Shown: positions 2,172 through 59,292 of the stretch, in pieces
Layout: every line of letters begins with the position of its first letter
Numbering within the stretch: the stretch's first letter is position 1
Assembly: GCF_039596395.1 (NCBI RefSeq)
Contig: NZ_JBCNJT010000001.1
Coordinates: 715,315 to 779,314 of the forward strand
DNA: 64,000 bases
From: Fluviicola sp.
Lineage (GTDB): Bacteria > Bacteroidota > Bacteroidia > Flavobacteriales_D > Crocinitomicaceae
Direction of reading: 5' to 3'
Position numbers and translations under genes: made by a program
The notes under the pieces: model-generated
The model's database searches: none
What the model was told of the DNA's origin: nothing
What the model saw: only the letters and a program-made list of their open reading frames with translations

Positions 2172-2885
2172 GTGACGCGAGCAGTTGTAATTATCCCAAC
2201 ATATAATGAAAAAGAGAATGTTGAGCGCATGGCTCAGGCGGTAATGAGTTTGCCTGTTGCTATCGATATTCTATTTGTAGATGATAATTCACCCGATGGA
2301 ACAGCTGCTATTATCCGCGACTTGATGGGGCAATTCCCGAACCGTATTTTCCTGGAAGAAAGACAAGGGAAACTGGGGCTTGGAACGGCTTATATTCACG
2401 GGTTTAAATGGTCATTGAACCAGAATTACGAGTACATTTTTGAAATGGACTGCGACTTTTCACACAATCCGCTGGATTTACCGAGATTACTGGAAGCCTG
2501 CACCCAAAAAGGAGCGGATGTAAGTATCGGTTCACGTTATACGAAAGGTGGAAAAGTCCAGAACTGGCCTATGGGCCGCATCCTGATGTCGTATTTTGCT
2601 TCAGTGTATGTTCGAATGATCCTGTTTATAGGGATTTCAGATACCACTGCCGGTTTCATGTGCTATTCGAGTAAAGTGCTCAGAGCAATTGACCTGGACA
2701 ACATCCATTTCAAGGGATATGCCTTCCAGATCGAAATGAAATACGCGGCAAAGCGAAAAGGATTTAAAATTATCGAAGTTCCGATCACATTCATAGATCG
2801 ACAGTTCGGAGAATCCAAAATGTCTTCAAGTATCTTCAAGGAGGCTTTCTTTGGAGTTTGGAAAATGAGAAATTTAAAGGTGTAA
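2172..2885 (+). CDS. Polyprenol monophosphomannose synthase (Dpm1-like GT2)
   Basis: IIPTYNE, VDDNSPDGT, MDCDFSHNP, DTTAGF, GYAFQIEMK, FIDRQFGESKMS; GTG start. Confidence 0.92.
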   Translation: MTRAVVIIPTYNEKENVERMAQAVMSLPVAIDILFVDDNSPDGTAAIIRDLMGQFPNRIFLEERQGKLGLGTAYIHGFKWSLNQNYEYIFEMDCDFSHNPLDLPRLLEACTQKGADVSIGSRYTKGGKVQNWPMGRILMSYFASVYVRMILFIGISDTTAGFMCYSSKVLRAIDLDNIHFKGYAFQIEMKYAAKRKGFKIIEVPITFIDRQFGESKMSSSIFKEAFFGVWKMRNLKV

Positions 2886-4222
2886 TGGCAAAGATTTTAC
2901 TGAAAGGCGCAACGCTTGTAAACGAAGGAAAAGAATTTGTTGCAGATGTTTTAATTGATGGAAAGCGTATTTCTAAAATCGCATCTTCAATTGCTGCTGA
3001 CGGATCTGTGCAGGAAATCAATTGTGAAGGATTACACCTGCTTCCGGGTTGTATCGATGACCAGGTTCATTTCAGAGAACCGGGATTGACACACAAAGCC
3101 AATATCCAATCGGAATCCAGGGCTGCAGTAGCAGGAGGGATCACTTCTTTCATGGAAATGCCGAACACGGTTCCGAATACACTTACACAGGAATTACTGG
3201 AAGCAAAATACCAGCGTGCAGGGGAAGTTTCTCCCGCAAATTATTCCTTCTTCATGGGAGCTTCGAATGACAACTACGAAGAAGTAATGAAAACGAACAT
3301 CCGGAATGTTTGCGGTGTCAAAATCTTCATGGGGTCTTCTACCGGAAATATGCTGGTAGATAACACCAGTACGTTGGAACACTTATTCGCAAATGTGCCG
3401 ATGTTGATTGCCACACACTGCGAAGACGAGGCGACAATCAGAAAGAACCTGGAAGCATACAAAGAGAAATACGGAGAGGATATCCCGATGTCTGCCCATC
3501 CGTTGATCAGGAGTGCAGAGGCTTGTTATTTGTCGTCTTCCAAAGCGATAGAACTGGCTAAAAAGAACAATACGAGATTACACATTCTTCATATTTCTAC
3601 CGGAATTGAAACGGAATTGTTCCGGAACGATATTCCACTGGAGCAGAAACGCATTACAGCCGAAGCTTGTGTGCATCATTTGTGGTTCTCAGATGCTGAT
3701 TACGATCAGAAAGGTGCATGGATCAAATGGAATCCGGCGGTGAAAACAGCTGCAGACAGGGATCAGATCTGGCAGGCACTTTTGGATAACCGCATTGATG
3801 TGATCGCTACAGATCACGCACCTCATACGATAGAAGAAAAAGAGCAGAAATACCTGCAGGCACCTTCAGGCGGGCCATTGGTCCAACATGCGTTGCTGGC
3901 AATGCTGGATGCTTCTGCTAACGGGAAAATTCCGTTGGTTCGCGTGGCTGAAAAAATGGCGCATGCTGTTGCCGTTTGTTTCCGGATCGAAGACCGCGGT
4001 TTCCTCCGTGAAGGTTATTTTGCGGATTTGGTACTGGTAGACCTGAATAAAAAATCCACGGTAACCAAAGAATCCATTTTGTACCAATGCGGGTGGTCCC
4101 CGTTTGAAGGGACTACTTTCTCTTCGACTATTGAAAAGACTTTTGTGAACGGGGAAATCGTTTATGAAAATGGCCGCTTAACTGAGAATAAGCCGGGAGA
4201 ACGTCTGTTATTCAACCGATGA
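2885..4222 (+). CDS. pyrC: Dihydroorotase
   Basis: DDQVHFREPG, EMPNT, KIFMGSSTG, HCEDE, KWNP, ATDHAPH; start reassigned to ATG 2885 (TAATG overlap with upstream stop). Confidence 0.92.
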   Translation: MAKILLKGATLVNEGKEFVADVLIDGKRISKIASSIAADGSVQEINCEGLHLLPGCIDDQVHFREPGLTHKANIQSESRAAVAGGITSFMEMPNTVPNTLTQELLEAKYQRAGEVSPANYSFFMGASNDNYEEVMKTNIRNVCGVKIFMGSSTGNMLVDNTSTLEHLFANVPMLIATHCEDEATIRKNLEAYKEKYGEDIPMSAHPLIRSAEACYLSSSKAIELAKKNNTRLHILHISTGIETELFRNDIPLEQKRITAEACVHHLWFSDADYDQKGAWIKWNPAVKTAADRDQIWQALLDNRIDVIATDHAPHTIEEKEQKYLQAPSGGPLVQHALLAMLDASANGKIPLVRVAEKMAHAVAVCFRIEDRGFLREGYFADLVLVDLNKKSTVTKESILYQCGWSPFEGTTFSSTIEKTFVNGEIVYENGRLTENKPGERLLFNR

Positions 4223-4572: not shown

Positions 4573-5283
4573 TTAGCGGCATTCGATTTGGATGGATGTC
4601 ATCAGTTTTCTGAATTCCTTGTTGTACTGATCTTCATTGAACCAGTTTTTCTGGTTTTCCAGGACACAGTTCCACCAACCGTATCTCAATACTTCAATTC
4701 TTGCCCAAAATTCTTTGTTCGGAGCATTCCAGTGCTGTTCGAATGCTTTATTTATTGGGTTGGGATCAAGTGCTCCTTCGACCTCCTTTTCATGAATTTC
4801 TTTCCAGGCATTCAATAAGGTATTGCCACCTTTTTCCAAAGCAGTGATGTAGTGGGAACATTCTTTACAGTAAGGTGTCCCTTTCAATGCTTTGGGTTGG
4901 TTTAATGCGATAACCGCTTTTTCGCGCAGCAGGCATTGTTCCCTGATATTGTCCAGCCTCATTTTTTTGAGATTGGTCCAGTATTCGCCTTTCGGGTATT
5001 CCATTTGCTCAAGTTCGGTAACGAATCCGGAACATTCCGACCGGATGTTTTTGACATTAAAATAAGCAGTGTCTTTCGGTTGGTAAGCCAAAAAAGGCTG
5101 ACTCAATTCGGATGCCTGAATCAACGTGAAATGCACGTTTTGCACTTGTTCGTAATTCGCTTTTGCAGGATCAATTTGCGCTTTGGATATGCAATAACCT
5201 TCCTGCCATTCGAAAACTTCCTGAGCACATAGCAAAGAGGAAAATGAAAGCAGAAGGCCAACGGATAGTATGAAGTTTTTCAT
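4573..5283 (-). CDS. Hypothetical secreted protein
   Basis: Signal peptide [21 protein letters not shown]; Cys/Trp-rich; overlaps ruvC stop. Confidence 0.75.
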
Positions 5284-42968: not shown

Positions 42969-44411
42969 TTATTTCCATCCGCCACCAAGGGCCTGGTAAA
43001 CACTTACCATGTTATAAAGTTGTTCCTGTTTGATCTCTACCAGGTCAAACTTGGCTTCGATAGCGTCGCGCTGTGTCATTAAAACTTCCATGTAATCTGC
43101 TTTCGCGGATTTAAACAAGTTTGTGGAAATGGTAATCGACTGATTCATCGCATCCACTTGCTTTAATTTCAGGTCATAACTGTTTTTCAAATTCTGAACT
43201 TTTGTGACCCGGTTGGCTACTTCGATGTATGCATTCAGGATCGTTTGTTCGTATTTGTAAACCGCCTGGAATTGTTTGGCGTTTGCAGAAGCATACTTCG
43301 CCTTCAGCGCATTTCTGTTGATCAACGGAGCTACCAGATCACCGGCAATGTTATACAACAAGGACTGCGGCGATGTTATCAGGTACTTGACATTGAAAGC
43401 CTGGTAACCAACTCCGGCAGTAATGCGCAGGGAAGGGTAGAATTGAGCCCTTGCAACTTTCACATCCAGGTTCGATGCTGTCAGGTTCAATTCAGCCTGC
43501 CGGATATCCGGTCGGTTTTGAAGCAATTGGGAAGGAATCCCGTTGTAAATCGTATCCGGAACCATTTGCTGGAAAGCTGTTGAGTTGCGCTGAACCGGTT
43601 GCGGGAAGCGTCCTACCAGGAAGTTGATGCGGTTTTCTGCCTCGACGATCTGCTGCTGGATGTAAAATAAGTGGCTTTGGTTCTTGTAAACCTCCGCCTC
43701 AAACTTCTTCACGGCCAATTCGGTTACTTCACCGGCAACTTTTTGCAACTTCACGATTTCCAGCGCATTTTTCTGGATCTCCAGGTTTTGCTGCAGGATC
43801 ATCAGTTTGTTATCGTATGCCATCAATTCGTAGTACGACTCCGAGATTTCAGCCACCAGGTTGGTAACCATGAAGTTTTTACCCTCCACACTTGCCAGGT
43901 AACGGGATGCAGCTGCATCTCTTCCGTTTCGCAATTTGCGCCAGATATCGATTTCCCAGGAAGCATTTACGCCTACCATTAAATCTCCAAGCGGTTCGGG
44001 GAAAGCTTTCCCGTCGTGGATCGGCAGGTTTTTCTCCACTGCTCCGTCACGGGTGTATTCACCGACTTTTTCCACACCGGCCCCAACGCGAACACCGGCT
44101 GAAGGCAGGTATTCTCCCTTTTTGGCTCTTACTTCTGCTTTTGCCACATTGATCTCCTGCATGGTGATGTTCAACTCCTGGTTATTTTTCAGGGCAGTAT
44201 CAATCAATGCAATCAGGTACTGGTCCTTGAAGAAATCTTTCCATTTGATGTCGGCCGTATTGGTGCTGTCTTTGGAATCAGAACCCGGATACGTTGCAGG
44301 AGTCGATTTATTTTCCGTCTTTAAAGCTATTTTCAGGTCTTTACATGCGGTGACACTGACTGCCAGTGCTGCAATGATGAACCAGCTTCCTATTTTATTT
44401 TTAGTGCGCAT
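42969..44411 (-). CDS. Efflux outer-membrane factor lipoprotein (TolC/NodT family)
   Basis: VTAC lipobox, WKDFFKD, SWEIDIWRKL, PSQLLQNRPDIRQAE, YQALGGGW. Confidence 0.93.
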   Translation of the reverse strand: MRTKNKIGSWFIIAALAVSVTACKDLKIALKTENKSTPATYPGSDSKDSTNTADIKWKDFFKDQYLIALIDTALKNNQELNITMQEINVAKAEVRAKKGEYLPSAGVRVGAGVEKVGEYTRDGAVEKNLPIHDGKAFPEPLGDLMVGVNASWEIDIWRKLRNGRDAAASRYLASVEGKNFMVTNLVAEISESYYELMAYDNKLMILQQNLEIQKNALEIVKLQKVAGEVTELAVKKFEAEVYKNQSHLFYIQQQIVEAENRINFLVGRFPQPVQRNSTAFQQMVPDTIYNGIPSQLLQNRPDIRQAELNLTASNLDVKVARAQFYPSLRITAGVGYQAFNVKYLITSPQSLLYNIAGDLVAPLINRNALKAKYASANAKQFQAVYKYEQTILNAYIEVANRVTKVQNLKNSYDLKLKQVDAMNQSITISTNLFKSAKADYMEVLMTQRDAIEAKFDLVEIKQEQLYNMVSVYQALGGGWK

Positions 44412-47400
44412 TGTCTTCAGTTTCATCGGTTGTTGGAAAATTGTCTATTGCATGAACGAAGTCCTCTGTCAAAGAGCTGTCATCTTCGTTCTTGATCAGT
44501 TTGCGGCCATCAGCCAGCGTACCGAAGATGTAGTACAGACCCGGGATAATGATTACTCCGAAGATCGTTCCGAAGAGCATTCCTCCCAGTGCACAAGCCC
44601 CGATCGTTCTGTTACCGATAGCTCCCGGACCGGTTGCAATAACCAATGGGATCAACCCGGCGATGAACGCAAAGGAAGTCATCAAAATCGGACGGAAACG
44701 CACTTTTGCACCTTCAATGGCCGCTTCCAGAACGGTTGCTCCTTCGTGGTGCTTCTGCATGGCGAATTCCACGATCAACACGGCGTTCTTACCTAAGAGC
44801 CCGACGAGCATGACTAATCCTACCTGTGCATAGATGTTGTTCTCCAATCCCATTAATTTGATCAGTAAGAACGACCCGAAGATCCCGGCAGGAAGTGAAA
44901 GAATTACAGCCAATGGAATGATGAAGCTTTCATACTGTGCCGCCAATACGAAGTATACGAAGATCAATACGACGATGAAAATGTACAAAGCTTCGTTTCC
45001 ACGCATGGTTTCGTCTTTTGAAAGTCCTCCCCAGTCGATGTCGTAACCTCTCGGCAATGTTGATTTGGCAACTTCCTGTGCTGCTTTGATCGCTTCACCG
45101 GAACTGAATCCTTTTGCAGCAGAACCACGAATGGATGCGGTTGTGTACATGTTGTAACGGTTGATCTCGTTGGCTCCCTGTGATTTCACGATTTTCATAA
45201 AGGAAGAGAAAGGAACCATTTCGCCGCGGTCATTTTTCACATATAGTTTCATGATATCTTCCGGCAATCTTCTGTATTCCGGAGAAGCCTGAACGAATAC
45301 CTTGAAGAAACGCTGGTACTTGATGAAACCAAGTTCGTAAGTACTACCGATCAAAATGGAAAGCGTGTTCATCGCGTTTCCGATGGAAACTCCTTTCTGC
45401 ATCGCCAAATCGTTGTTGATCTGAAGTTCGTATTGCGGATAATTCGCACTATAGAACGTGAACAGACCTGTGATTTCCTTGCGTTTGCGCAATGCATTCA
45501 TGAATTCCGTATTCACACGTTCCAATTCCAGGTAATCACCCGTGTTGGTCTTATCCAGCAACTGAAGAGAGAAACCTCCCGCTGCACCATACCCCGGAAC
45601 CGCCGGCGGATCAAAGAACTCGATGGTTGCACCCGGAATTACTTTCGCTTTTTCTTCCAGTTCATAGATGATTTCCTGCACGTTATGCTTTCTTTCCGAC
45701 CATGGATCCAGGTTGATCAGACAGGTTCCGGCATTGGAACCACGACCTTCCGTCAATACCTCGTATCCCGCAAGGGCAGAAACGGATTTGATACCATCTA
45801 CTTTTTCGGCAATTGCCTGCAGTTTTCGTGCAATATCATTGGTTCTTTCCAAAGTTGATCCCGGAGGTGTCTGGATAATCGCATAGATCATTCCCTGGTC
45901 TTCACTCGGGATGAACCCGGAAGGCAGTTTCTCACTGAGCCCGAAAATACCCAACCCGAATGCAATCAGGATAATGGCGGTCACCAGTCGCCGGTTTACG
46001 ATCTTATTCAATAACCCGACGTATCTTCCGGTCATTTTCTCGAATCCTCTGTTAAACCAGTCCAGGAAACGGTTGATCGGTGTCTTCTTGCGTGGTTTCC
46101 CGTGGTTGTTTTTCAACAGCATCGCACAAAGTACCGGTGTCAGTGTCAATGCAACCAACCCGGAAAGAACGATGGAAGTTGCCATGGTAATCGCAAACTG
46201 GCGGTAGAAAATACCTACCGGACCCGACATGAACGCTACCGGAACGAACACGGCCGTCATCAATAAGGTAATGGCGATTACGGCACCACTGATCTCTTTC
46301 AATACTTTCTTCACTGCCTGGTAAGGCGAAAGGTGTTCTTCTTCCATCTTGGCGTGAACGGCCTCGACGACGACGATGGCATCATCGACCACAATACCGA
46401 TCGCCAGTACCAATGCGAACAGGGTGATCAGGTTGATCGTTAACCCGAACATTTGCATGAAAATGAACGCACCGATCAATGAAACCGGAACGGCAATGGT
46501 TGGAATAAGGGTAGAACGGAAGTCTCCTAAGAATAAGAATACTACCAATGCCACGAGGATAAATGCTTCCCCAAGGGTGTGAAGTACTTTTTCAATGGAT
46601 GCATCCAGGAAGTTCGAAACGTCATAACTGATCTCGTACTCCATTCCCGGAGGGAAGGAAGTCTTTTTCAATTCTTCCAGTTTCTCTTTCACGCGTTCGA
46701 TGACCTCTGTTGCGTTACTTCCGTAAGTTTGTTTCAATACGATCGCTGCAGAAGGATATTCATCCTTGTTGGAGTAAATATCGTAGTACTCACTACCTAG
46801 TTCTACCTCCGCTACGTCTTTCAGTCGCAGGATTTCCCCGTCCGGATTGGAGCGGATAATCACATTCTTGTATTCGTCTGCTTCGTTGAAACGGCCTTTG
46901 TAGGTCAATACATATTCCAGTGCTTCCGCACGTTTACCGTCACTTCGCCCGATACGTCCCGGAGACCCGATGACACTCTGGGAGTTCAGGGCTTCCATGA
47001 TTTCGTCGGTGGAAATGTTGTAAGCCCGCATACGGTCCGGCTTCAGCCAGATACGCATTGCATACTGGCGGCTACCCAAGATACTTGCCTGACCAATCCC
47101 GTTAATACGCTGCAATTCAGGAATCATGTTTACCCCGGCAACGTTGAAAATGAATTTCATGTCGGCTTTCGGGTCCTTACTGTACAGGTTGACGTACATC
47201 AACATACTCGGCATGATCCGGTTCACGATAACCCCTTCACGCTGTACGAGGACAGGAAGACGGTTCAATACCTGTGCAATACGCGTATTCACCTGTACCA
47301 ATGCCTGATCGGGATCTGTTCCAAGGTTGAATACGATCTGGATATTTGCTTCCCCGGCACTGGTTGCATCGGAAGTCATGTATTTCATTCCCGGAACCCC

Positions 47401-47610
47401 GTTTACGGCTTGTTCCAGTGGAATCAGTACGGATTCTGTCAGTACTTTCGCACTCGCTCCCGGGTAGGAAGCTCTTACGATAACTGTAGGCGGTGCAATC
47501 TCGGGGAACTGTGAAGTTGATAACCCACTGATCGCAAGTACACCCATGAAGATGATGACCAATGATAGCACGATTGCTAAAACAGGTCTGTGTATGAATT
47601 TATTAAACAT
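44401..47610 (-). CDS. RND efflux permease (AcrB/HAE1-like)
   Basis: FIHRPVLA, QFPEIAPP, GIVVDDAIVVVE, GLLGKNAVLIVEFA, RFRPILMTS. Confidence 0.96.
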   Translation of the reverse strand: MFNKFIHRPVLAIVLSLVIIFMGVLAISGLSTSQFPEIAPPTVIVRASYPGASAKVLTESVLIPLEQAVNGVPGMKYMTSDATSAGEANIQIVFNLGTDPDQALVQVNTRIAQVLNRLPVLVQREGVIVNRIMPSMLMYVNLYSKDPKADMKFIFNVAGVNMIPELQRINGIGQASILGSRQYAMRIWLKPDRMRAYNISTDEIMEALNSQSVIGSPGRIGRSDGKRAEALEYVLTYKGRFNEADEYKNVIIRSNPDGEILRLKDVAEVELGSEYYDIYSNKDEYPSAAIVLKQTYGSNATEVIERVKEKLEELKKTSFPPGMEYEISYDVSNFLDASIEKVLHTLGEAFILVALVVFLFLGDFRSTLIPTIAVPVSLIGAFIFMQMFGLTINLITLFALVLAIGIVVDDAIVVVEAVHAKMEEEHLSPYQAVKKVLKEISGAVIAITLLMTAVFVPVAFMSGPVGIFYRQFAITMATSIVLSGLVALTLTPVLCAMLLKNNHGKPRKKTPINRFLDWFNRGFEKMTGRYVGLLNKIVNRRLVTAIILIAFGLGIFGLSEKLPSGFIPSEDQGMIYAIIQTPPGSTLERTNDIARKLQAIAEKVDGIKSVSALAGYEVLTEGRGSNAGTCLINLDPWSERKHNVQEIIYELEEKAKVIPGATIEFFDPPAVPGYGAAGGFSLQLLDKTNTGDYLELERVNTEFMNALRKRKEITGLFTFYSANYPQYELQINNDLAMQKGVSIGNAMNTLSILIGSTYELGFIKYQRFFKVFVQASPEYRRLPEDIMKLYVKNDRGEMVPFSSFMKIVKSQGANEINRYNMYTTASIRGSAAKGFSSGEAIKAAQEVAKSTLPRGYDIDWGGLSKDETMRGNEALYIFIVVLIFVYFVLAAQYESFIIPLAVILSLPAGIFGSFLLIKLMGLENNIYAQVGLVMLVGLLGKNAVLIVEFAMQKHHEGATVLEAAIEGAKVRFRPILMTSFAFIAGLIPLVIATGPGAIGNRTIGACALGGMLFGTIFGVIIIPGLYYIFGTLADGRKLIKNEDDSSLTEDFVHAIDNFPTTDETEDNAH

Positions 47611-47634: not shown

Positions 47635-48717
47635 TTACTCCGTATAAACTTTCAGGTGATTGATTACCGATTTCGGGTCCTGATACTGGTAAGTGATCTT
47701 ATCTCCATCTCTTACTTTACGAATTCCTTCCAAAAGAATGCGCTCGTCCGTTTTCAACCCGCTTTTAAGAATATACAAATCCGGGATTTCGGAACGGATT
47801 ACGATTTCTCTGGAATGTACCACATTGTCCTTATCAACTACATAAACGTATTTCTTTTCAAGAACTTCGTATGTTGCTTTTTGAGGAATGATCATTGCAC
47901 GCTTCAAAGGAACCACCATTTGGATACTTCCTGTTTCCCCGTGTCTGAGCAATTTTTTCGGATTCGGGAAGGTAGCACGGAAAGCGATGTTACCGGTTTC
48001 ATTGTTGAAATCCGCTTCAATGGTTTCTACTACTCCCGGGTATTCATAGATCTCGTTATTGGCCATCAGCAACTGGACATTTTTCATGTTATCGCCCTGG
48101 TTAACCGTTTTGAAATTCAGGTACTGAGCTTCAGGAACGTTGAAATAAACCCACAATTTGCTGTTATCGGAAAGGGTTGTCAGCAAGTCGCCTTCATCCA
48201 CCAAACTTCCCAAACGAACCTGGAAACGGTCCATAATCCCGTCAAACGGAGCTTTGATCTCTGTGAAGCCCAAACGAACCTGTGATAAAGACAATTCAGC
48301 TTTTGCCTTGTCGTATTTTGCTTTCACCAATGCCAATTGGTTTTTGGAAATCACGTTGCTGTCTGCAAGCATTTTCGCGTTCTGGTATTCTGTTTTCGCA
48401 AAGTTTGCTTCAGCTTGTGCTTTTTGCATCTCCGCTTCGTACATCATTGGCATGATCTGGAACATCAACTGGCCTTTTTTCACCATTTGACCTTCGTCTA
48501 CATAGATCTTTTGCAAATAACCTTTTTCAAGGGCTCTGATCTCAATATGTTGGATTGCACGGATCTGACAAACATAATCCTGTACAATGGTAGTATCTTT
48601 TAATAAAGGACTTGTCACCAATAATTTACCGGTTTCTTCCTTTTCTTCTTCTTTCGGACCGCAGCTTGTAGCGCACACTGCAACGATCAAGCTCATGAAA
48701 ATGAGAACTCTCTTCAT
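47635..48717 (-). CDS. RND periplasmic adaptor (MFP), lipoprotein
   Basis: ATSC lipobox, EIRALEKGYL, IKAPFDG, TGNIAFRATFPNP. Confidence 0.94.
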   Translation of the reverse strand: MKRVLIFMSLIVAVCATSCGPKEEEKEETGKLLVTSPLLKDTTIVQDYVCQIRAIQHIEIRALEKGYLQKIYVDEGQMVKKGQLMFQIMPMMYEAEMQKAQAEANFAKTEYQNAKMLADSNVISKNQLALVKAKYDKAKAELSLSQVRLGFTEIKAPFDGIMDRFQVRLGSLVDEGDLLTTLSDNSKLWVYFNVPEAQYLNFKTVNQGDNMKNVQLLMANNEIYEYPGVVETIEADFNNETGNIAFRATFPNPKKLLRHGETGSIQMVVPLKRAMIIPQKATYEVLEKKYVYVVDKDNVVHSREIVIRSEIPDLYILKSGLKTDERILLEGIRKVRDGDKITYQYQDPKSVINHLKVYTE

Positions 48718-48856
48718 AATAATCGTGTTTTTAAAACGAGTTGTTTTTGTTGTTAAATTGTGTTTGGATTTTTAGATCCAGCGATAGTTTTCCGAACTAA
48801 TATAGGATTGTTTTAACAAACATCAAATCAATCAGTAAGGAAAAAATAATTAGTTG

Positions 48857-48874
48857 AGACAATGAGCATTGTCT
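48857..48874. other. Hairpin just after the leader ORF stop
   Basis: AGACAATG-AG-CATTGTCT, perfect 8-bp stem, no adjacent U-tract. Confidence 0.6.
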
Positions 48875-48882
48875 GCTGGATT

Positions 48883-49299
48883 CTATATTCTGAATACCTG
48901 AAAAACGACATGTCTTTTATTGGCTGTAATAAAAGACAACTGTTCACAGAACACAGAACTGTTTTTGGTATTGCCGTAGAGGTAATCGAGCGATTGATCT
49001 ACCGGGATACCCGCAAAGAACAGATTATTATAAAGGTGTTTACCGGAAGAGAAGTCTTCCGTTTCTTCTTCCAGGTTTTCAAAGATCAATTCGGTATCTT
49101 CAGCAGGAATGGAAGAGTTTGAATCGATAGAGGAACTTGATTTGTGGTGTTTAACTACAAATTTAGAATGTTCCGGATAATGATGATGAAAATTGAAAGG
49201 AGTGTTTGCCCGCTCTGCCGGATGGGCGTTCAGCTGGTTCGAACCAAGGATCTGGAGAACACACAAGAGCTGAAAAAATCCAATAAGCAAACTTTTCAT
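48883..49299 (-). CDS. Hypothetical 138-aa signal-peptide protein at the head of the RND operon
   Basis: N-terminal hydrophobic signal, His cluster, acidic patch, ends HVVFQVFRI*. Confidence 0.7.
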   Translation of the reverse strand: MKSLLIGFFQLLCVLQILGSNQLNAHPAERANTPFNFHHHYPEHSKFVVKHHKSSSSIDSNSSIPAEDTELIFENLEEETEDFSSGKHLYNNLFFAGIPVDQSLDYLYGNTKNSSVFCEQLSFITANKRHVVFQVFRI

Positions 49300-49432
49300 G
49301 GTGTAAAACTAACAGAGAGTTGAAACATAGCCAAATTTTCCGGTGTTAAATATTGGTTAATGGTTACAGGTACGTGATCCGTCGTTACCTACCATACAGA
49401 AAATCACACTTTTCGCCCGAATGCTGATGTAC

Positions 49433-49462
49433 AAAAAAAGGTTCTCATTTCTGAGAACCTTT
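49433..49462 (-). terminator. Intrinsic terminator
   Basis: AAAGGTTCTCA-TTTC-TGAGAACCTTT with A-tract. Confidence 0.88.
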
Positions 49463-49479: not shown

Positions 49480-49701
49480 TTAATATTCATCTTCATTAAA
49501 TAGGAAGTCATCCTTAGACGGATAATCCGGCCAGATTTCTTCAATGCTTTCATATACATCACCCTCATCTTCTAAATCCTGGAGATTTTCTACTACTTCT
49601 AAGGGTGCACCTGCTCTGATCGCATAATCAATCAGCTCGTCTTTTGTTGCAGGCCAAGGAGCGTCTTCTAAGTAGGATGCTAGTTCTAATGTCCAATACA
49701 T
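49480..49701 (-). CDS. DUF2795 family protein
   Basis: MYWTLELASYLEDAPWPATKDELIDYAIR; TATTTTTG -7 motif at 49729-49736. Confidence 0.92.
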   Translation of the reverse strand: MYWTLELASYLEDAPWPATKDELIDYAIRAGAPLEVVENLQDLEDEGDVYESIEEIWPDYPSKDDFLFNEDEY

Positions 49702-50979: not shown

Positions 50980-53286
<2,307 letters not shown>

Positions 53287-58671: not shown

Positions 58672-59292
58672 ATGAGCAAAGAACTATCTACAGAAGAAAA
58701 GATCCGCGAAGCTGCAAAGAGTGTCTTTATTGCTAAGGGATTTGACGGCTGTACCTCCCGGGAAATAGCCAAAGCTGCGGGAATGAACGTGGCGCTTGTA
58801 AACTACTACTTCTGTTCCAAGAAACAATTGTTTAAGCTCATTTTTGAAACCGCCATGGAAGATTTTATGCTTTCAACGGTGGAAGTCTTCCGGAAGGATC
58901 TTAGCCTGGAGTCGAAAATGCGCATTTTTATCGAGCGGGAATATGAATTCCTGACTTCTCATCCGGATATTCCGCGTTTTATTTTATCCGAGCTTTCAAG
59001 AGGTGATAAGTGTGAATTCGATCATGCGGGAATCCTGGATAAAATCTCCAGTACAGGCGTTTTTGAAGAATTGCTGGAAGCCCAGGAAAAAGGAGTGATC
59101 CGCAAAATCGATCTTACCAATATCATGCTGATGATCATGTCGAACTGTCATTATCCCTTCATGGCAAAACCCTTGTTGAAATACCTGAACAGTTTGTCGG
59201 AAGAAGAATACCAGGAGCGTTTGATGCTCCAGAAACAATACGTTACGGAAATGCTGATCGGGTATCTGTTTAACCCGAAAACAAATATATAA
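58672..59292 (+). CDS. TetR/AcrR family regulator
   Basis: KIREAAKSVFIAKGFDGCTSREIAKAAGMNVALVNYYF. Confidence 0.95.
   Translation: MSKELSTEEKIREAAKSVFIAKGFDGCTSREIAKAAGMNVALVNYYFCSKKQLFKLIFETAMEDFMLSTVEVFRKDLSLESKMRIFIEREYEFLTSHPDIPRFILSELSRGDKCEFDHAGILDKISSTGVFEELLEAQEKGVIRKIDLTNIMLMIMSNCHYPFMAKPLLKYLNSLSEEEYQERLMLQKQYVTEMLIGYLFNPKTNI

What the first reader, a model, noticed from the sequence alone, without database searches (positions are those of the whole stretch)
48718..49299. Candidate secretion- or metal-sensing leader ORF controlling an RND operon
Seen: a 138-aa ORF with a Sec-like signal (ending QLNA), six His in FHHHYPEHSKFVVKHHK, an acidic patch (EDTELIFENLEEETED) and a hydrophobic/basic end HVVFQVFRI*. 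An 8-bp hairpin lies 8 nt after the stop, then a 165-bp gap before the MFP gene. No transcription factor is adjacent, unlike the TetR-led RND operon at 58672. Established: SecM, VemP and CruR are signal-bearing leaders that regulate downstream genes by ribosome arrest. I recall xFRI* endings on similar Bacteroidota leaders (unverified). Inference: an undescribed arrest-peptide attenuation system.
Basis: partly seen in the sequence, partly recalled or inferred. Interest (0 to 1): 0.7.

Follow-up and report, generated by a model that had tools for sequence, protein, structure and literature searches.

The report
Exported leader gene heading efflux operon
A small, exported, apparently unfolded protein gene with an almost invariant tail (…FQVFRI-stop) sits in front of one particular multidrug-type efflux pump operon in about one Bacteroidota genome in eight. 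It looks like a built-in regulatory "leader" of a recently described kind, but whether it stalls the ribosome is untested.

Summary
A 138-aa ORF (window 48883-49299, minus strand) has a signal peptide, a His run, an acidic patch and the tail HVVFQVFRI*. A hairpin lies 8 nt after its stop, and 165 nt separate the stop from an MFP-RND-OMP operon.

It is not a chance ORF. It belongs to an unannotated family of about 105-170 aa with no Pfam, NCBIfam, PDB or Rfam match.
- A signal-bearing upstream ORF with this tail or a variant precedes 26 of the 28 best orthologous MFP loci in the phylum sample.
- Only the signal peptide, an acidic cluster 61±2.4 residues from the C-terminus, and the last ~11 residues are conserved. 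The codons of the tail vary, so selection acts on the peptide.
- A conserved Bacteroidota promoter ends 4-8 nt before the ATG, which implies a leaderless mRNA. A conserved TTAAC direct repeat precedes that promoter.
- The spacer holds no promoter motif. A hairpin starts about 12 nt after the stop in most loci.
- AlphaFold finds no fold beyond the signal helix.

Best reading (0.45): a cis-acting exported leader of the CutF/CruR/SecM kind, with a new non-proline tail, on a non-metal pump.

Metal sensing is not supported: the His run is the least conserved part and the pump is HAE1-type. Ribosome stalling is untested. A trans-acting secreted partner protein remains a serious rival.

The parts
49344..49361 (-). 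ATTAACCAATATTTAACA: a direct TTAAC repeat about 11 bp apart, just upstream of the -33 element. It is a candidate binding site for an unidentified transcription factor.
   Evidence: It is identical in all 10 Fluviicola loci in which this stretch is readable, although their upstream genes differ. Related TTAAC-N5-6-(T/A)TTAAC elements sit at the same place in Flagellimonas, Arenibacter and other genera. It is unique in this genome at 0-1 mismatch.
49332..49335 (-). -33 element TTTG
   Evidence: It lies 20 nt upstream of the -7 box. The same TT(T)G-N20 spacing is seen in nearly all loci.
49304..49311 (-). -7 promoter box TAGTTTTA (Bacteroidota sigma-A type TAnnTTTG), 4 nt before the ATG
   Evidence: A TAnnTTT[GA] box lies 4-9 nt before the ATG in 48 of 61 unique loci. 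The G of the box sits at -5 in F. johnsoniae (PMC6847099). The predicted 5' UTR is therefore 0-4 nt.
48883..49299 (-). Leader ORF of 138 aa (P0001), stop codon included
49225..49299 (-). Sec-type signal peptide (residues 1-25, MKSLLIGFFQLLCVLQILGSNQLNA)
   Evidence: MKxLLIGFFQxLC is invariant in Fluviicola. The signal is conserved across the family. K/R occurs in the first 8 residues in 168 of 174 representatives, with a strongly hydrophobic core. It is the only confident AlphaFold helix. No SignalP was available.
49141..49191 (-). His-rich stretch FHHHYPEHSKFVVKHHK (residues 37-53), the least conserved part
   Evidence: pN/pS 0.32-0.53
49054..49101 (-). Acidic patch EDTELIFENLEEETED (residues 67-82)
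   Evidence: An acidic cluster is present in all members, 60.9±2.4 residues from the C-terminus against 78.7±5.0 from the N-terminus. pN/pS is 0.11-0.15.
48886..48921 (-). C-terminal motif NKRHVVFQVFRI (residues 127-138). The stop codon TAG is at 48883-48885.
   Evidence: In 174 non-redundant members the last residues are conserved as follows: I(-1) 90%, R(-2) 93%, F(-3) 77%, V(-4) 90%, Q(-5) 60%, F(-6) 71%. Arg, Ile and stop codons differ among genera.
48857..48874 (-). Hairpin HP1 (AGACAAU GCUC AUUGUCU), 8 nt after the stop
   Evidence: Across the family, the best hairpin starts a median of 12 nt after the stop (IQR 10-14), and is more stable than in shuffles (p=1e-7, n=62).
48875..48881 (-). 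AUCCAGC, the 5' strand of long-range helix P0. It lies inside the footprint of a ribosome sitting on the stop codon.
   Evidence: 94.7% of cells are paired and one column changes on both sides. The helix is seen only in one Fluviicola clade.
48776..48782 (-). GCUGGAU, the 3' strand of P0. It is shared with the alternative local hairpin at 48765-48780 (UGGAUC..AUCCA).
48718..48882 (-). 165-nt spacer between the ORF and the MFP gene. The 5' two thirds are structured and the 3' third is A-rich.
   Evidence: Spacer length is a median of 154 nt, IQR 147-165, and 350-364 nt in Pontibacter. There is no full TAnnTTTG in 6354 nt of 41 spacers. The fold z-score is -2.56.
47635..48717 (-). RND periplasmic adaptor (MFP lipoprotein)
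44401..47610 (-). RND permease, HAE1 type
   Evidence: TIGR00915 scores 1064 against a cut-off of 940. CusA/CzcA TIGR00914 scores 357 against a cut-off of 701.
42969..44426 (-). NodT-family outer-membrane factor
49433..49459 (-). Canonical intrinsic terminator of the upstream DUF2795 gene (GGUUCUC..GAGAACC followed by U7). It isolates the leader unit from upstream transcription.

Best explanation
The ORF is the first cistron of a self-contained regulatory module for the MFP-RND-OMP operon. It most likely acts in cis while it is being translated and exported, as CutF, CruR, SecM and VemP do.

Proposed sequence of events:
1. A sigma-A promoter (-33 TTTG, -7 TAGTTTTA), flanked by a conserved TTAAC direct repeat, starts the mRNA at or within 4 nt of the AUG.
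2. The signal peptide takes the nascent chain to SecYEG.
3. When the ribosome reaches the last codons, the conserved tail [RK]-R-[HY]-phi-phi-F-Q-V-F-R-I occupies the upper exit tunnel and slows the last elongation steps or termination.
4. At that moment the aromatic segment (about 34-48 residues back) and the acidic cluster (about 61 residues back) would lie at or beyond the tunnel exit, near the translocon. How long the pause lasts would therefore depend on export, meaning pulling force, membrane potential or envelope state.
5. The paused ribosome covers the 8-15 nt between the stop and hairpin HP1. In the window's clade these nucleotides form one strand of a long-range helix. Covering them changes the fold of the promoter-less spacer, and so changes read-through, stability or translation of the pump genes.

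Shown: family membership, synteny, the conservation pattern, the promoter position, the hairpin geometry and the lack of a predicted fold.
Inferred: the pause, its dependence on export, and the output step.
For: 1. Linkage. The ORF lies upstream of the same-strand MFP gene in 11 of 11 Fluviicola loci, although the upstream neighbours differ. The same holds in every distant locus examined. Of the 28 best MFP-orthologue loci in a 401-genome phylum sample, 26 carry a signal-bearing ORF of 105-170 aa with the tail or a variant of it.
2. Conservation pattern. Only the last three residues reach 90% conservation in a 48-sequence alignment with 33% mean identity. One search gives the per-position values. 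Synonymous codons and all three stop codons are used, so the selection acts on the peptide.
3. Spacing. The acidic cluster is fixed relative to the C-terminus rather than the N-terminus.
4. Structure. No globular fold is predicted: pLDDT is 52 and 59, and only the signal helix is confident. There is no Pfam, NCBIfam or PDB relative.
5. Spacer. The ORF is separated from a tightly packed operon by a spacer of conserved length (median 154 nt) with no -7 box.
6. Hairpin. A hairpin starts 12 nt (IQR 10-14) after the stop in 62 loci, with different sequences.
7. Alternative pairing. In the window's clade the nucleotides that a terminating ribosome would cover pair with a segment about 100 nt downstream, and that segment can alternatively form a local hairpin.
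8. Precedent. Exported leaders before RND genes are described (PMC9973294). So are non-proline arrest peptides that stall with the stop codon in the A site (PMC10987492). A hydrophobic segment exerts pulling force when it is about 45 residues from the PTC (PMC7886326).
9. Genomic slot. Other MFP operons in this genome are headed by AraC, MarR or TetR regulators or by OMP genes. In the one genus that lacks the ORF, an OmpR-type two-component system sits in its place in one genome.
Against: - No stalling, transcript or ribosome-profiling data could be obtained.
- The hairpin begins just beyond the reach of a ribosome sitting on the stop codon, so a simple SecM-like melting of it is unlikely.
- The ORF end does not pair with the MFP start region more than control windows do.
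- The long-range helix is confined to one Fluviicola clade.
- The whole protein is under purifying selection (pN/pS 0.3-0.5 even in the middle), and an acidic patch is conserved. A trans-acting disordered protein would also show both features.
- The spacer (135-183 nt) is longer than for most CutF-like genes, which are mostly under 100 nt.
- Bacteroidota lack Shine-Dalgarno sites, so the classical output step has no obvious target.
- A conserved operator-like repeat shows that at least part of the control is transcriptional.
Confidence: 0.45

Rival explanations
1. The ORF encodes a secreted or membrane-associated, intrinsically disordered small protein that acts in trans. It could be an accessory or partner of this particular pump. 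It could instead be a CpxP-like periplasmic feedback modulator of the sensor that drives the TTAAC-repeat promoter. Its C-terminal tail would be a short binding or degradation motif. The hairpin and spacer would merely set the ratio between the small protein and the pump, as an internal attenuator or processing site.
For: - Co-inheritance with one RND clade is strict.
- The whole ORF is under purifying selection.
- The acidic cluster and aromatic segment are conserved outside the part that would sit in the ribosomal tunnel.
- F-R-I-COOH fits a hydrophobic-x-hydrophobic C-terminal ligand of the kind PDZ proteases bind. This rests on my own knowledge and was not tested.
- A conserved operator implies a transcription factor, possibly of a two-component system.
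- Secreted disordered partners of RND systems are known, for example SilE and CusF-type proteins.
Against: - Variants with 3-5 extra residues after the motif (IPLFILFHSWKSHLS*...WKTYNNN*...LRLPC*) argue against a need for a free C-terminal carboxylate.
- No fold is predicted and no family relatives are found.
- The promoter-less spacer of conserved length and the fixed stop-to-hairpin distance are not needed by a plain operon subunit. MFP-RND-OMP themselves are packed with 24 nt and -26 nt spacing.
- CutF, the best-studied analogue, is degraded on reaching the periplasm.
Confidence: 0.35
2. It is a metal-sensing (His-dependent) CutF/CruR-type leader controlling a metal efflux pump.
For: There are six His in 17 residues and more near the mature N-terminus. 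CutF-like clusters with His-only motifs exist.
Against: - The His run is the most variable part in Fluviicola and is absent from most of the family. Only 55 of 174 representatives have any Cys/His-type motif in that region.
- The permease scores as HAE1 and falls below the CusA/CzcA cut-off.
- PP occurs in the last 15 residues in 1 of 174 members.
- There is no DUF2946 match.
Confidence: 0.05
3. The two are independent transcription units. The ORF is an ordinary hypothetical gene ended by a weak terminator (HP1). The pump operon has its own unrecognised promoter in the spacer. On this reading, synteny reflects only co-transfer.
For: HP1 is often followed by a pyrimidine- or U-rich tract. Promoters of alternative sigma factors would not match TAnnTTTG.
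Against: - There is no -7 box in 41 spacers.
- HP1 is weak (-5.6 kcal/mol here) and its U tract is displaced by about 10 nt.
- Strict pairing across orders and classes of Bacteroidota is hard to maintain without a functional link.
Confidence: 0.1

Closest known systems
CutF of Rhodobacter capsulatus and the rule-based class of 'CutF-like proteins', including CruR of Bordetella pertussis and CopL (PMC9973294, PMC9426467)
   Same: Both are small (<150 aa) Sec-signal-bearing first cistrons on the same strand as the regulated gene. Both have a conserved C-terminal motif and poor conservation elsewhere. CutF-like genes are frequent in Bacteroidota and frequently sit in front of RND components (OEP, ACR_tran, HlyD_D23).
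   Different: - There is no PP or RAPP motif (1 of 174 members), no conserved Cys/His metal site and no DUF2946 match.
- The pump is a hydrophobe/amphiphile (HAE1) type, not a metal pump.
- The spacer is about 150 nt rather than mostly under 100 nt.
- The mRNA is predicted to be leaderless.
- The family would have been excluded by the published filters.
Sec/YidC monitoring substrates: SecM, VemP, MifM and the stop-codon arresters uA_NSP-stop, uDF_NAP-stop and uDF_DGMK-stop (PMC7897499, PMC10987492)
   Same: Both have an N-terminal export signal, a size of about 95-170 aa and a conserved motif at or next to the C-terminus. Both show a patchy phylogenetic distribution and a structured spacer before the regulated gene. 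A non-proline motif that ends at the stop codon has a precedent in DGMK-stop.
   Different: - The regulated genes encode an efflux pump, not the export machinery.
- The motif FQVFRI is unlike any described arrest sequence.
- There is no Shine-Dalgarno site to unmask.
- The hairpin lies just outside the footprint of a terminating ribosome.
TnaC and the tna operon (termination-stage arrest that blocks Rho)
   Same: In both, the motif runs to the stop codon, a long spacer without a promoter (about 150-220 nt) precedes the structural genes, and a pyrimidine-rich tract lies downstream.
   Different: TnaC is 24 aa, cytoplasmic and senses tryptophan. A role for Rho here is pure conjecture.
Small periplasmic or membrane partners of RND systems (CusF, SilE, AcrZ, MexG)
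   Same: Both are small genes co-located with RND genes. SilE is secreted, His-rich and disordered.
   Different: There is no sequence or profile similarity. The conserved part is a C-terminal 11-mer, not a metal site or a transmembrane helix.

Membership tests
CutF-like proteins (Ozturk et al. 2023 rules) | Length under 150 aa | tested here: met
   The window ORF is 138 aa. The family mean is 139.7±4.7 aa. Remote variants range from 105 to 170 aa.
CutF-like proteins (Ozturk et al. 2023 rules) | N-terminal Sec signal peptide | tested here: met
   This was a heuristic test only, without SignalP. K/R occurs in the first 8 residues in 168 of 174 members. The median hydropathy of the best 11-residue window is 2.59. 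The c-region is QL[NY]A.
CutF-like proteins (Ozturk et al. 2023 rules) | [quoted passage not shown] | tested here: not met
   PP occurs in the last 15 residues in 1 of 174 representatives. The window ORF ends NKRHVVFQVFRI.
CutF-like proteins (Ozturk et al. 2023 rules) | Conserved Cys/His metal-binding motif | tested here: not met
   The His run is the least conserved segment. Only 55 of 174 members have any such motif.
CutF-like proteins (Ozturk et al. 2023 rules) | [quoted passage not shown] | tested here: met
   The spacer is 165 nt here and 98-364 nt across the family.
CutF-like proteins / CruR | DUF2946 (PF11162) profile match | tested here: not met
   No Pfam family matched more than one of the 48 members at E<=0.1.
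CutF-like proteins / CruR | Translation of the leader is required in cis for downstream expression | not testable with these tools
   This needs reporter genetics.
Regulatory arrest peptides (SecM/VemP/MifM/xxx-stop) | The nascent chain stalls its own ribosome at a defined codon | not testable with these tools
Regulatory arrest peptides (SecM/VemP/MifM/xxx-stop) | Conserved motif at or near the C-terminus with a divergent remainder | tested here: met
Regulatory arrest peptides (SecM/VemP/MifM/xxx-stop) | Encoded upstream of secA, secDF or yidC | tested here: not met
   The downstream genes are MFP, RND and OMP.
Regulatory arrest peptides (SecM/VemP/MifM/xxx-stop) | The stalled ribosome disrupts a stem that masks the downstream start region | tested here: inconclusive
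   A hairpin is conserved 12 nt after the stop but lies outside the footprint. ORF-end to MFP-start pairing is not enriched. A helix that a stalled ribosome could mask exists only in one Fluviicola clade.
CusF / periplasmic metallochaperones of RND systems | CusF fold or profile | tested here: not met
   There is no Pfam or PDB match. AlphaFold gives no folded domain.

The most novel reading that the evidence does not exclude
FQVFRI-stop is a new, proline-free translation-arrest (or termination-pause) motif of Bacteroidota. On this reading the leader is an export-, force- or membrane-potential-sensing 'monitoring substrate'. It would be translated from a leaderless mRNA and would couple envelope or export stress, for example from membrane-active pump substrates, to expression of a multidrug-type RND pump. 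It would do this in a phylum without Shine-Dalgarno sites, so through an output step different from SecM or CutF, such as an RNA refolding, attenuation or stability switch.
Probability: 0.3. Interest if true: 0.8.

Novelty: new variant of a known kind. Interest (0 to 1): 0.62.

Why it matters
If the leader works in cis, three things would follow.
- It would extend exported-nascent-chain sensing (SecM, VemP, CutF, CruR) to multidrug-type efflux.
- It would add a proline-free arrest motif to the few that are known.
- It would pose a clear question: how does a stalled ribosome signal to a downstream gene in bacteria that do not use Shine-Dalgarno sites?

The family is common. A close MFP orthologue is present in 47 of 401 sampled Bacteroidota genomes, and nearly all loci examined carry the leader. 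The family is completely unannotated and is missed by the published CutF-like filters. It also offers a compact, well-defined module for experiments: operator repeat, leaderless promoter, leader, hairpin and spacer. If instead the product acts in trans, it is a new disordered partner or regulator of a widespread RND pump.

Tried and rejected
- SecM-like masking: pairing between the ribosome-covered ORF end and the MFP start region is no better than for control windows (mean rank 0.43). Rejected.
- A universal long-range helix from the stop-adjacent nucleotides: it is strong in Fluviicola clade 1 but absent in other Fluviicola clades and in Flagellimonas (which ended at the time limit after about 20 loci). 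It is not a family feature.
- A promoter inside the spacer: there is no TAnnTTTG in 6354 nt of 41 spacers. The sigma-70-type scan is at background.
- Known RNA families: nothing reaches the Rfam thresholds. RNAalifold on the global Fluviicola alignment gave nothing, and on the trimmed alignment it gave only the two local hairpins.
- Known protein families: Pfam, NCBIfam and PDB profile searches were all negative.
- Structure comparison: this was not attempted, because both AlphaFold models are of low confidence.
- Regulon search with the TTAAC repeat plus the promoter: only this locus matches convincingly in the genome.
- Literature search for the motif: there is no relevant paper.
- Nucleotide-level constraint on the last codons: TTC AGA ATA TAG is fixed in the 11 genome-derived Fluviicola loci. 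ATC occurs in metagenomic Fluviicola, and other genera use other codons. The constraint is therefore on the peptide.
- The first related-loci run with the broad alignment failed for lack of a conserved stretch. A narrower alignment worked.
Full report
**What is there.** On the minus strand of the window, a 138-aa ORF (48883-49299) reads MKSLLIGFFQLLCVLQILGSNQLNA|HPAERANTPFNFHHHYPEHSKFVVKHHK...EDTELIFENLEEETED...NKRHVVFQVFRI*. One refinement is that the inverted repeat 8 nt after the stop folds as a 7-bp stem with a 4-nt loop (48857-48874). After 165 nt comes an MFP lipoprotein gene (47635-48717). It is followed at +24 nt by an RND permease (44401-47610), and a NodT-type outer-membrane factor (42969-44426) overlaps the permease by 26 nt. 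The permease passes the HAE1 model (TIGR00915, 1064 bits, cut-off 940). It fails the CusA/CzcA model (357 bits, cut-off 701). Upstream, a DUF2795 gene ends in a canonical terminator (49433-49459), so the ORF begins a new transcription unit.

**It is a real gene of a large, unannotated family.**
- The ORF has 51 full-length homologues at 58-86% identity. Those that carry an organism name are from Fluviicola, and all are annotated as 'hypothetical' or unnamed.
- pN/pS over 11 Fluviicola genes is 0.30. It is 0.04-0.12 in the signal peptide, 0.11-0.15 in the acidic patch, 0.10 in the tail and 0.3-0.5 in between, with synonymous sites near saturation.
- A profile search of 1.84 billion representative proteins found 112 proteins at E<=1e-3. 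Nearly all are 128-166 aa and align end to end.
- In a 48-sequence alignment with 33% mean identity, only the last three residues (F, R, I) reach 90% conservation.
- In 174 non-redundant members the tail reads [RK]-R-[HY]-[LIV]-x-F-Q-V-F-R-I. The frequencies are I(-1) 90%, R(-2) 93%, V(-4) 90%, F(-3) 77%, F(-6) 71% and Q(-5) 60%.
- Named hosts are Fluviicola, Pontibacter, Cyclobacteriaceae, Flagellimonas/Allomuricauda and Arenibacter.
- There is no Pfam, NCBIfam, PDB or Rfam match and no paper on the motif.
- Outside Fluviicola, Arg is encoded by AGA, AGG, CGA, CGC, CGG or CGT. Ile is encoded by ATA, ATT or ATC. All three stop codons occur. The peptide, not the RNA, is therefore what is conserved.

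**It is tied to one RND operon.** In 11 of 11 Fluviicola loci the ORF lies 139-180 nt upstream of the same MFP gene, although the genes further upstream differ. The same order (ORF, MFP of about 360 aa, RND of about 1066 aa, OMP of about 480 aa) holds in all distant loci examined. I then turned the question round and searched with the MFP. Close orthologues occur in 47 of 401 sampled genomes of the phylum. Of the 28 best loci with upstream sequence, 26 carry a signal-bearing ORF of 105-170 aa. These ORFs end in FQVFRI or a recognisable variant: NPIYITQRVLRI*, TPLYLRDCRILI*, PPIYIAIRRLLI*, LPLFIVFRVFRI*, and with a few extra residues IPLFILFHSWKSHLS*. Many of these are too diverged for the profile to find, yet they keep the tail. 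The two exceptions belong to one high-GC genus. In one of them an OmpR-type response regulator and a histidine kinase sit directly upstream instead. In the window's own genome, the other MFP genes are headed by AraC, MarR or TetR regulators or by OMP genes.

**The protein looks unfolded, and its landmarks are measured from the C-terminus.** AlphaFold2 gives pLDDT 52 with the shallow alignment and 59 with the diverse one. Only the signal helix is confident. The acidic cluster is present in all members and lies 60.9±2.4 residues from the C-terminus, against 78.7±5.0 from the N-terminus. A moderately hydrophobic, aromatic segment lies about 34-48 residues from the C-terminus. Published force profiles place the onset of translocon or membrane pulling on a hydrophobic segment at about 45 residues from the peptidyl-transferase centre (PMC7886326). 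The geometry is therefore what a force-sensitive leader would need. This is an inference, and a C-terminal binding module would give the same spacing.

**Promoter and start.** From Fluviicola to Flagellimonas and Arenibacter, one arrangement precedes the ORF: [TTAAC-N5-6-(T/A)TTAAC] - about 9 nt - TT(T)G - N20 - TA(G)nTTT(G/A) - 4 to 8 nt - ATG. In F. johnsoniae the G of the -7 box is at -5 (PMC6847099). The mRNA should therefore start at the AUG here (4-nt spacing), or 3-4 nt before it in the loci with 8-nt spacing. Leaderless mRNAs make up only about 5.5% in F. psychrophilum (PMC9723704). The 18-bp repeat element (49344-49361) is identical in all 10 Fluviicola loci in which that stretch is readable and occurs once in the genome. 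A direct repeat at about one helical turn suits a response-regulator-type activator. That reading is conjecture, supported only by the two-component system found in the leader-less genus.

**The spacer.**
- Its length is conserved: median 154 nt, IQR 147-165, but 350-364 nt in Pontibacter.
- It contains no TAnnTTTG in 6354 nt from 41 loci.
- It folds better than shuffles (z = -2.56 for the window).
- In 62 unique loci the best single hairpin within 62 nt after the stop starts a median of 12 nt after the stop (IQR 10-14). In 85% of loci it starts within 6-17 nt, against 42% in shuffles. Median energy is -7.75 kcal/mol against -4.75 kcal/mol (p=1e-7). The stems differ in sequence between genera. 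The loci are phylogenetically related, so these numbers overstate their independence.
- The hairpin thus sits just beyond the leading edge of a ribosome holding the stop codon in its A site. This argues against simple melting of the hairpin.
- In the window's Fluviicola clade, the 8 nt between the stop and the hairpin (AAUCCAGC) pair with GCUGGAU about 100 nt downstream. In this helix 94.7% of cells are paired, one column changes on both sides, and slid controls give 22-46%. The same GGAU can instead form a small local hairpin. A ribosome parked on the stop would decide between the two folds. I could not find this helix in other clades.
- Pairing between the ORF end and the MFP start region is not enriched.
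- The output step therefore remains unknown.

**Comparison with what is known.** Earlier notes of this scan pointed me to the CutF/CruR class, which I then read in the primary paper. CutF-like proteins are defined as under 150 aa, with a signal peptide, a PP motif in the last 15 residues, a Cys/His metal motif and a same-strand downstream gene. They are frequent in Bacteroidota and often precede RND components. This family meets the size, signal and context rules. It fails the PP rule (1 of 174), the metal-motif rule and the DUF2946 profile, and it heads a non-metal pump. Non-proline arrest peptides that stall with the stop codon in the A site exist (uDF_DGMK-stop, PMC10987492). I therefore file it as a new variant of a known kind: it works like an exported leader but is not a member of the CutF-like family as defined.

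**Verdict.** Metal sensing is not supported, and stalling is untested. I put 0.45 on a cis-acting exported leader and 0.35 on a trans-acting secreted disordered partner or regulator. The remainder goes to independent transcription units or metal sensing.

Noticed in passing
L042 (about 2655-3212, -) and L043 (990-1427, +): other Fluviicola genomes: A paralogous MFP-RND operon (41-43% identical MFP) is preceded by a different ORF of about 146 aa. It has a hydrophobic N-terminus, an acidic patch and a conserved tail FDLxSPPPxxxTFC*. This is a polyproline tail of the CutF-like kind, so two leader types with different tails may head paralogous pumps in one genus.
   Followed up: partly
L110 2034-4724 (+), upstream of the MFP at 5123: In the one genus where the orthologous operon lacks the leader ORF, an OmpR-type response regulator and a HAMP/HisKA histidine kinase lie directly upstream on the same strand. 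They are a candidate for the factor that binds the TTAAC direct repeat elsewhere.
   Followed up: partly
window 50980-53187 (-) and L111 2182-4476: Catalase-peroxidase KatG lies three genes upstream of the leader in the window. It is the divergent neighbour of the orthologous operon in a distant leader-less genome. This may be coincidence or a link to oxidative stress.
   Followed up: no
window 49304-49311 and the corresponding boxes in L049-L070: The conserved -7 box is TAGTTTTG or TAGTTTTA, with G at position -10. PMC6847099 reports G at -10 and -9 as virtually absent from F. johnsoniae sigma-A promoters. The box may therefore be a special promoter variant or the target of another sigma factor.
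   Followed up: no
L046 and L047 (Pontibacter): The spacer between the leader and the MFP gene is 350-364 nt instead of about 150 nt. The extra 200 nt were not examined.
   Followed up: no
L060, L063, L069 (Arenibacter), first 50 nt after the stop: The 3' arm of the post-stop hairpin contains GGGG, which can alternatively pair with a following CCCC directly before a U7-8 run. This gives a possible antiterminator/terminator pair in that genus only.
   Followed up: no
window 49480-49701 (-): A 73-aa DUF2795 gene with a textbook intrinsic terminator lies immediately upstream. It accompanies the leader in only part of the Fluviicola loci.
   Followed up: partly
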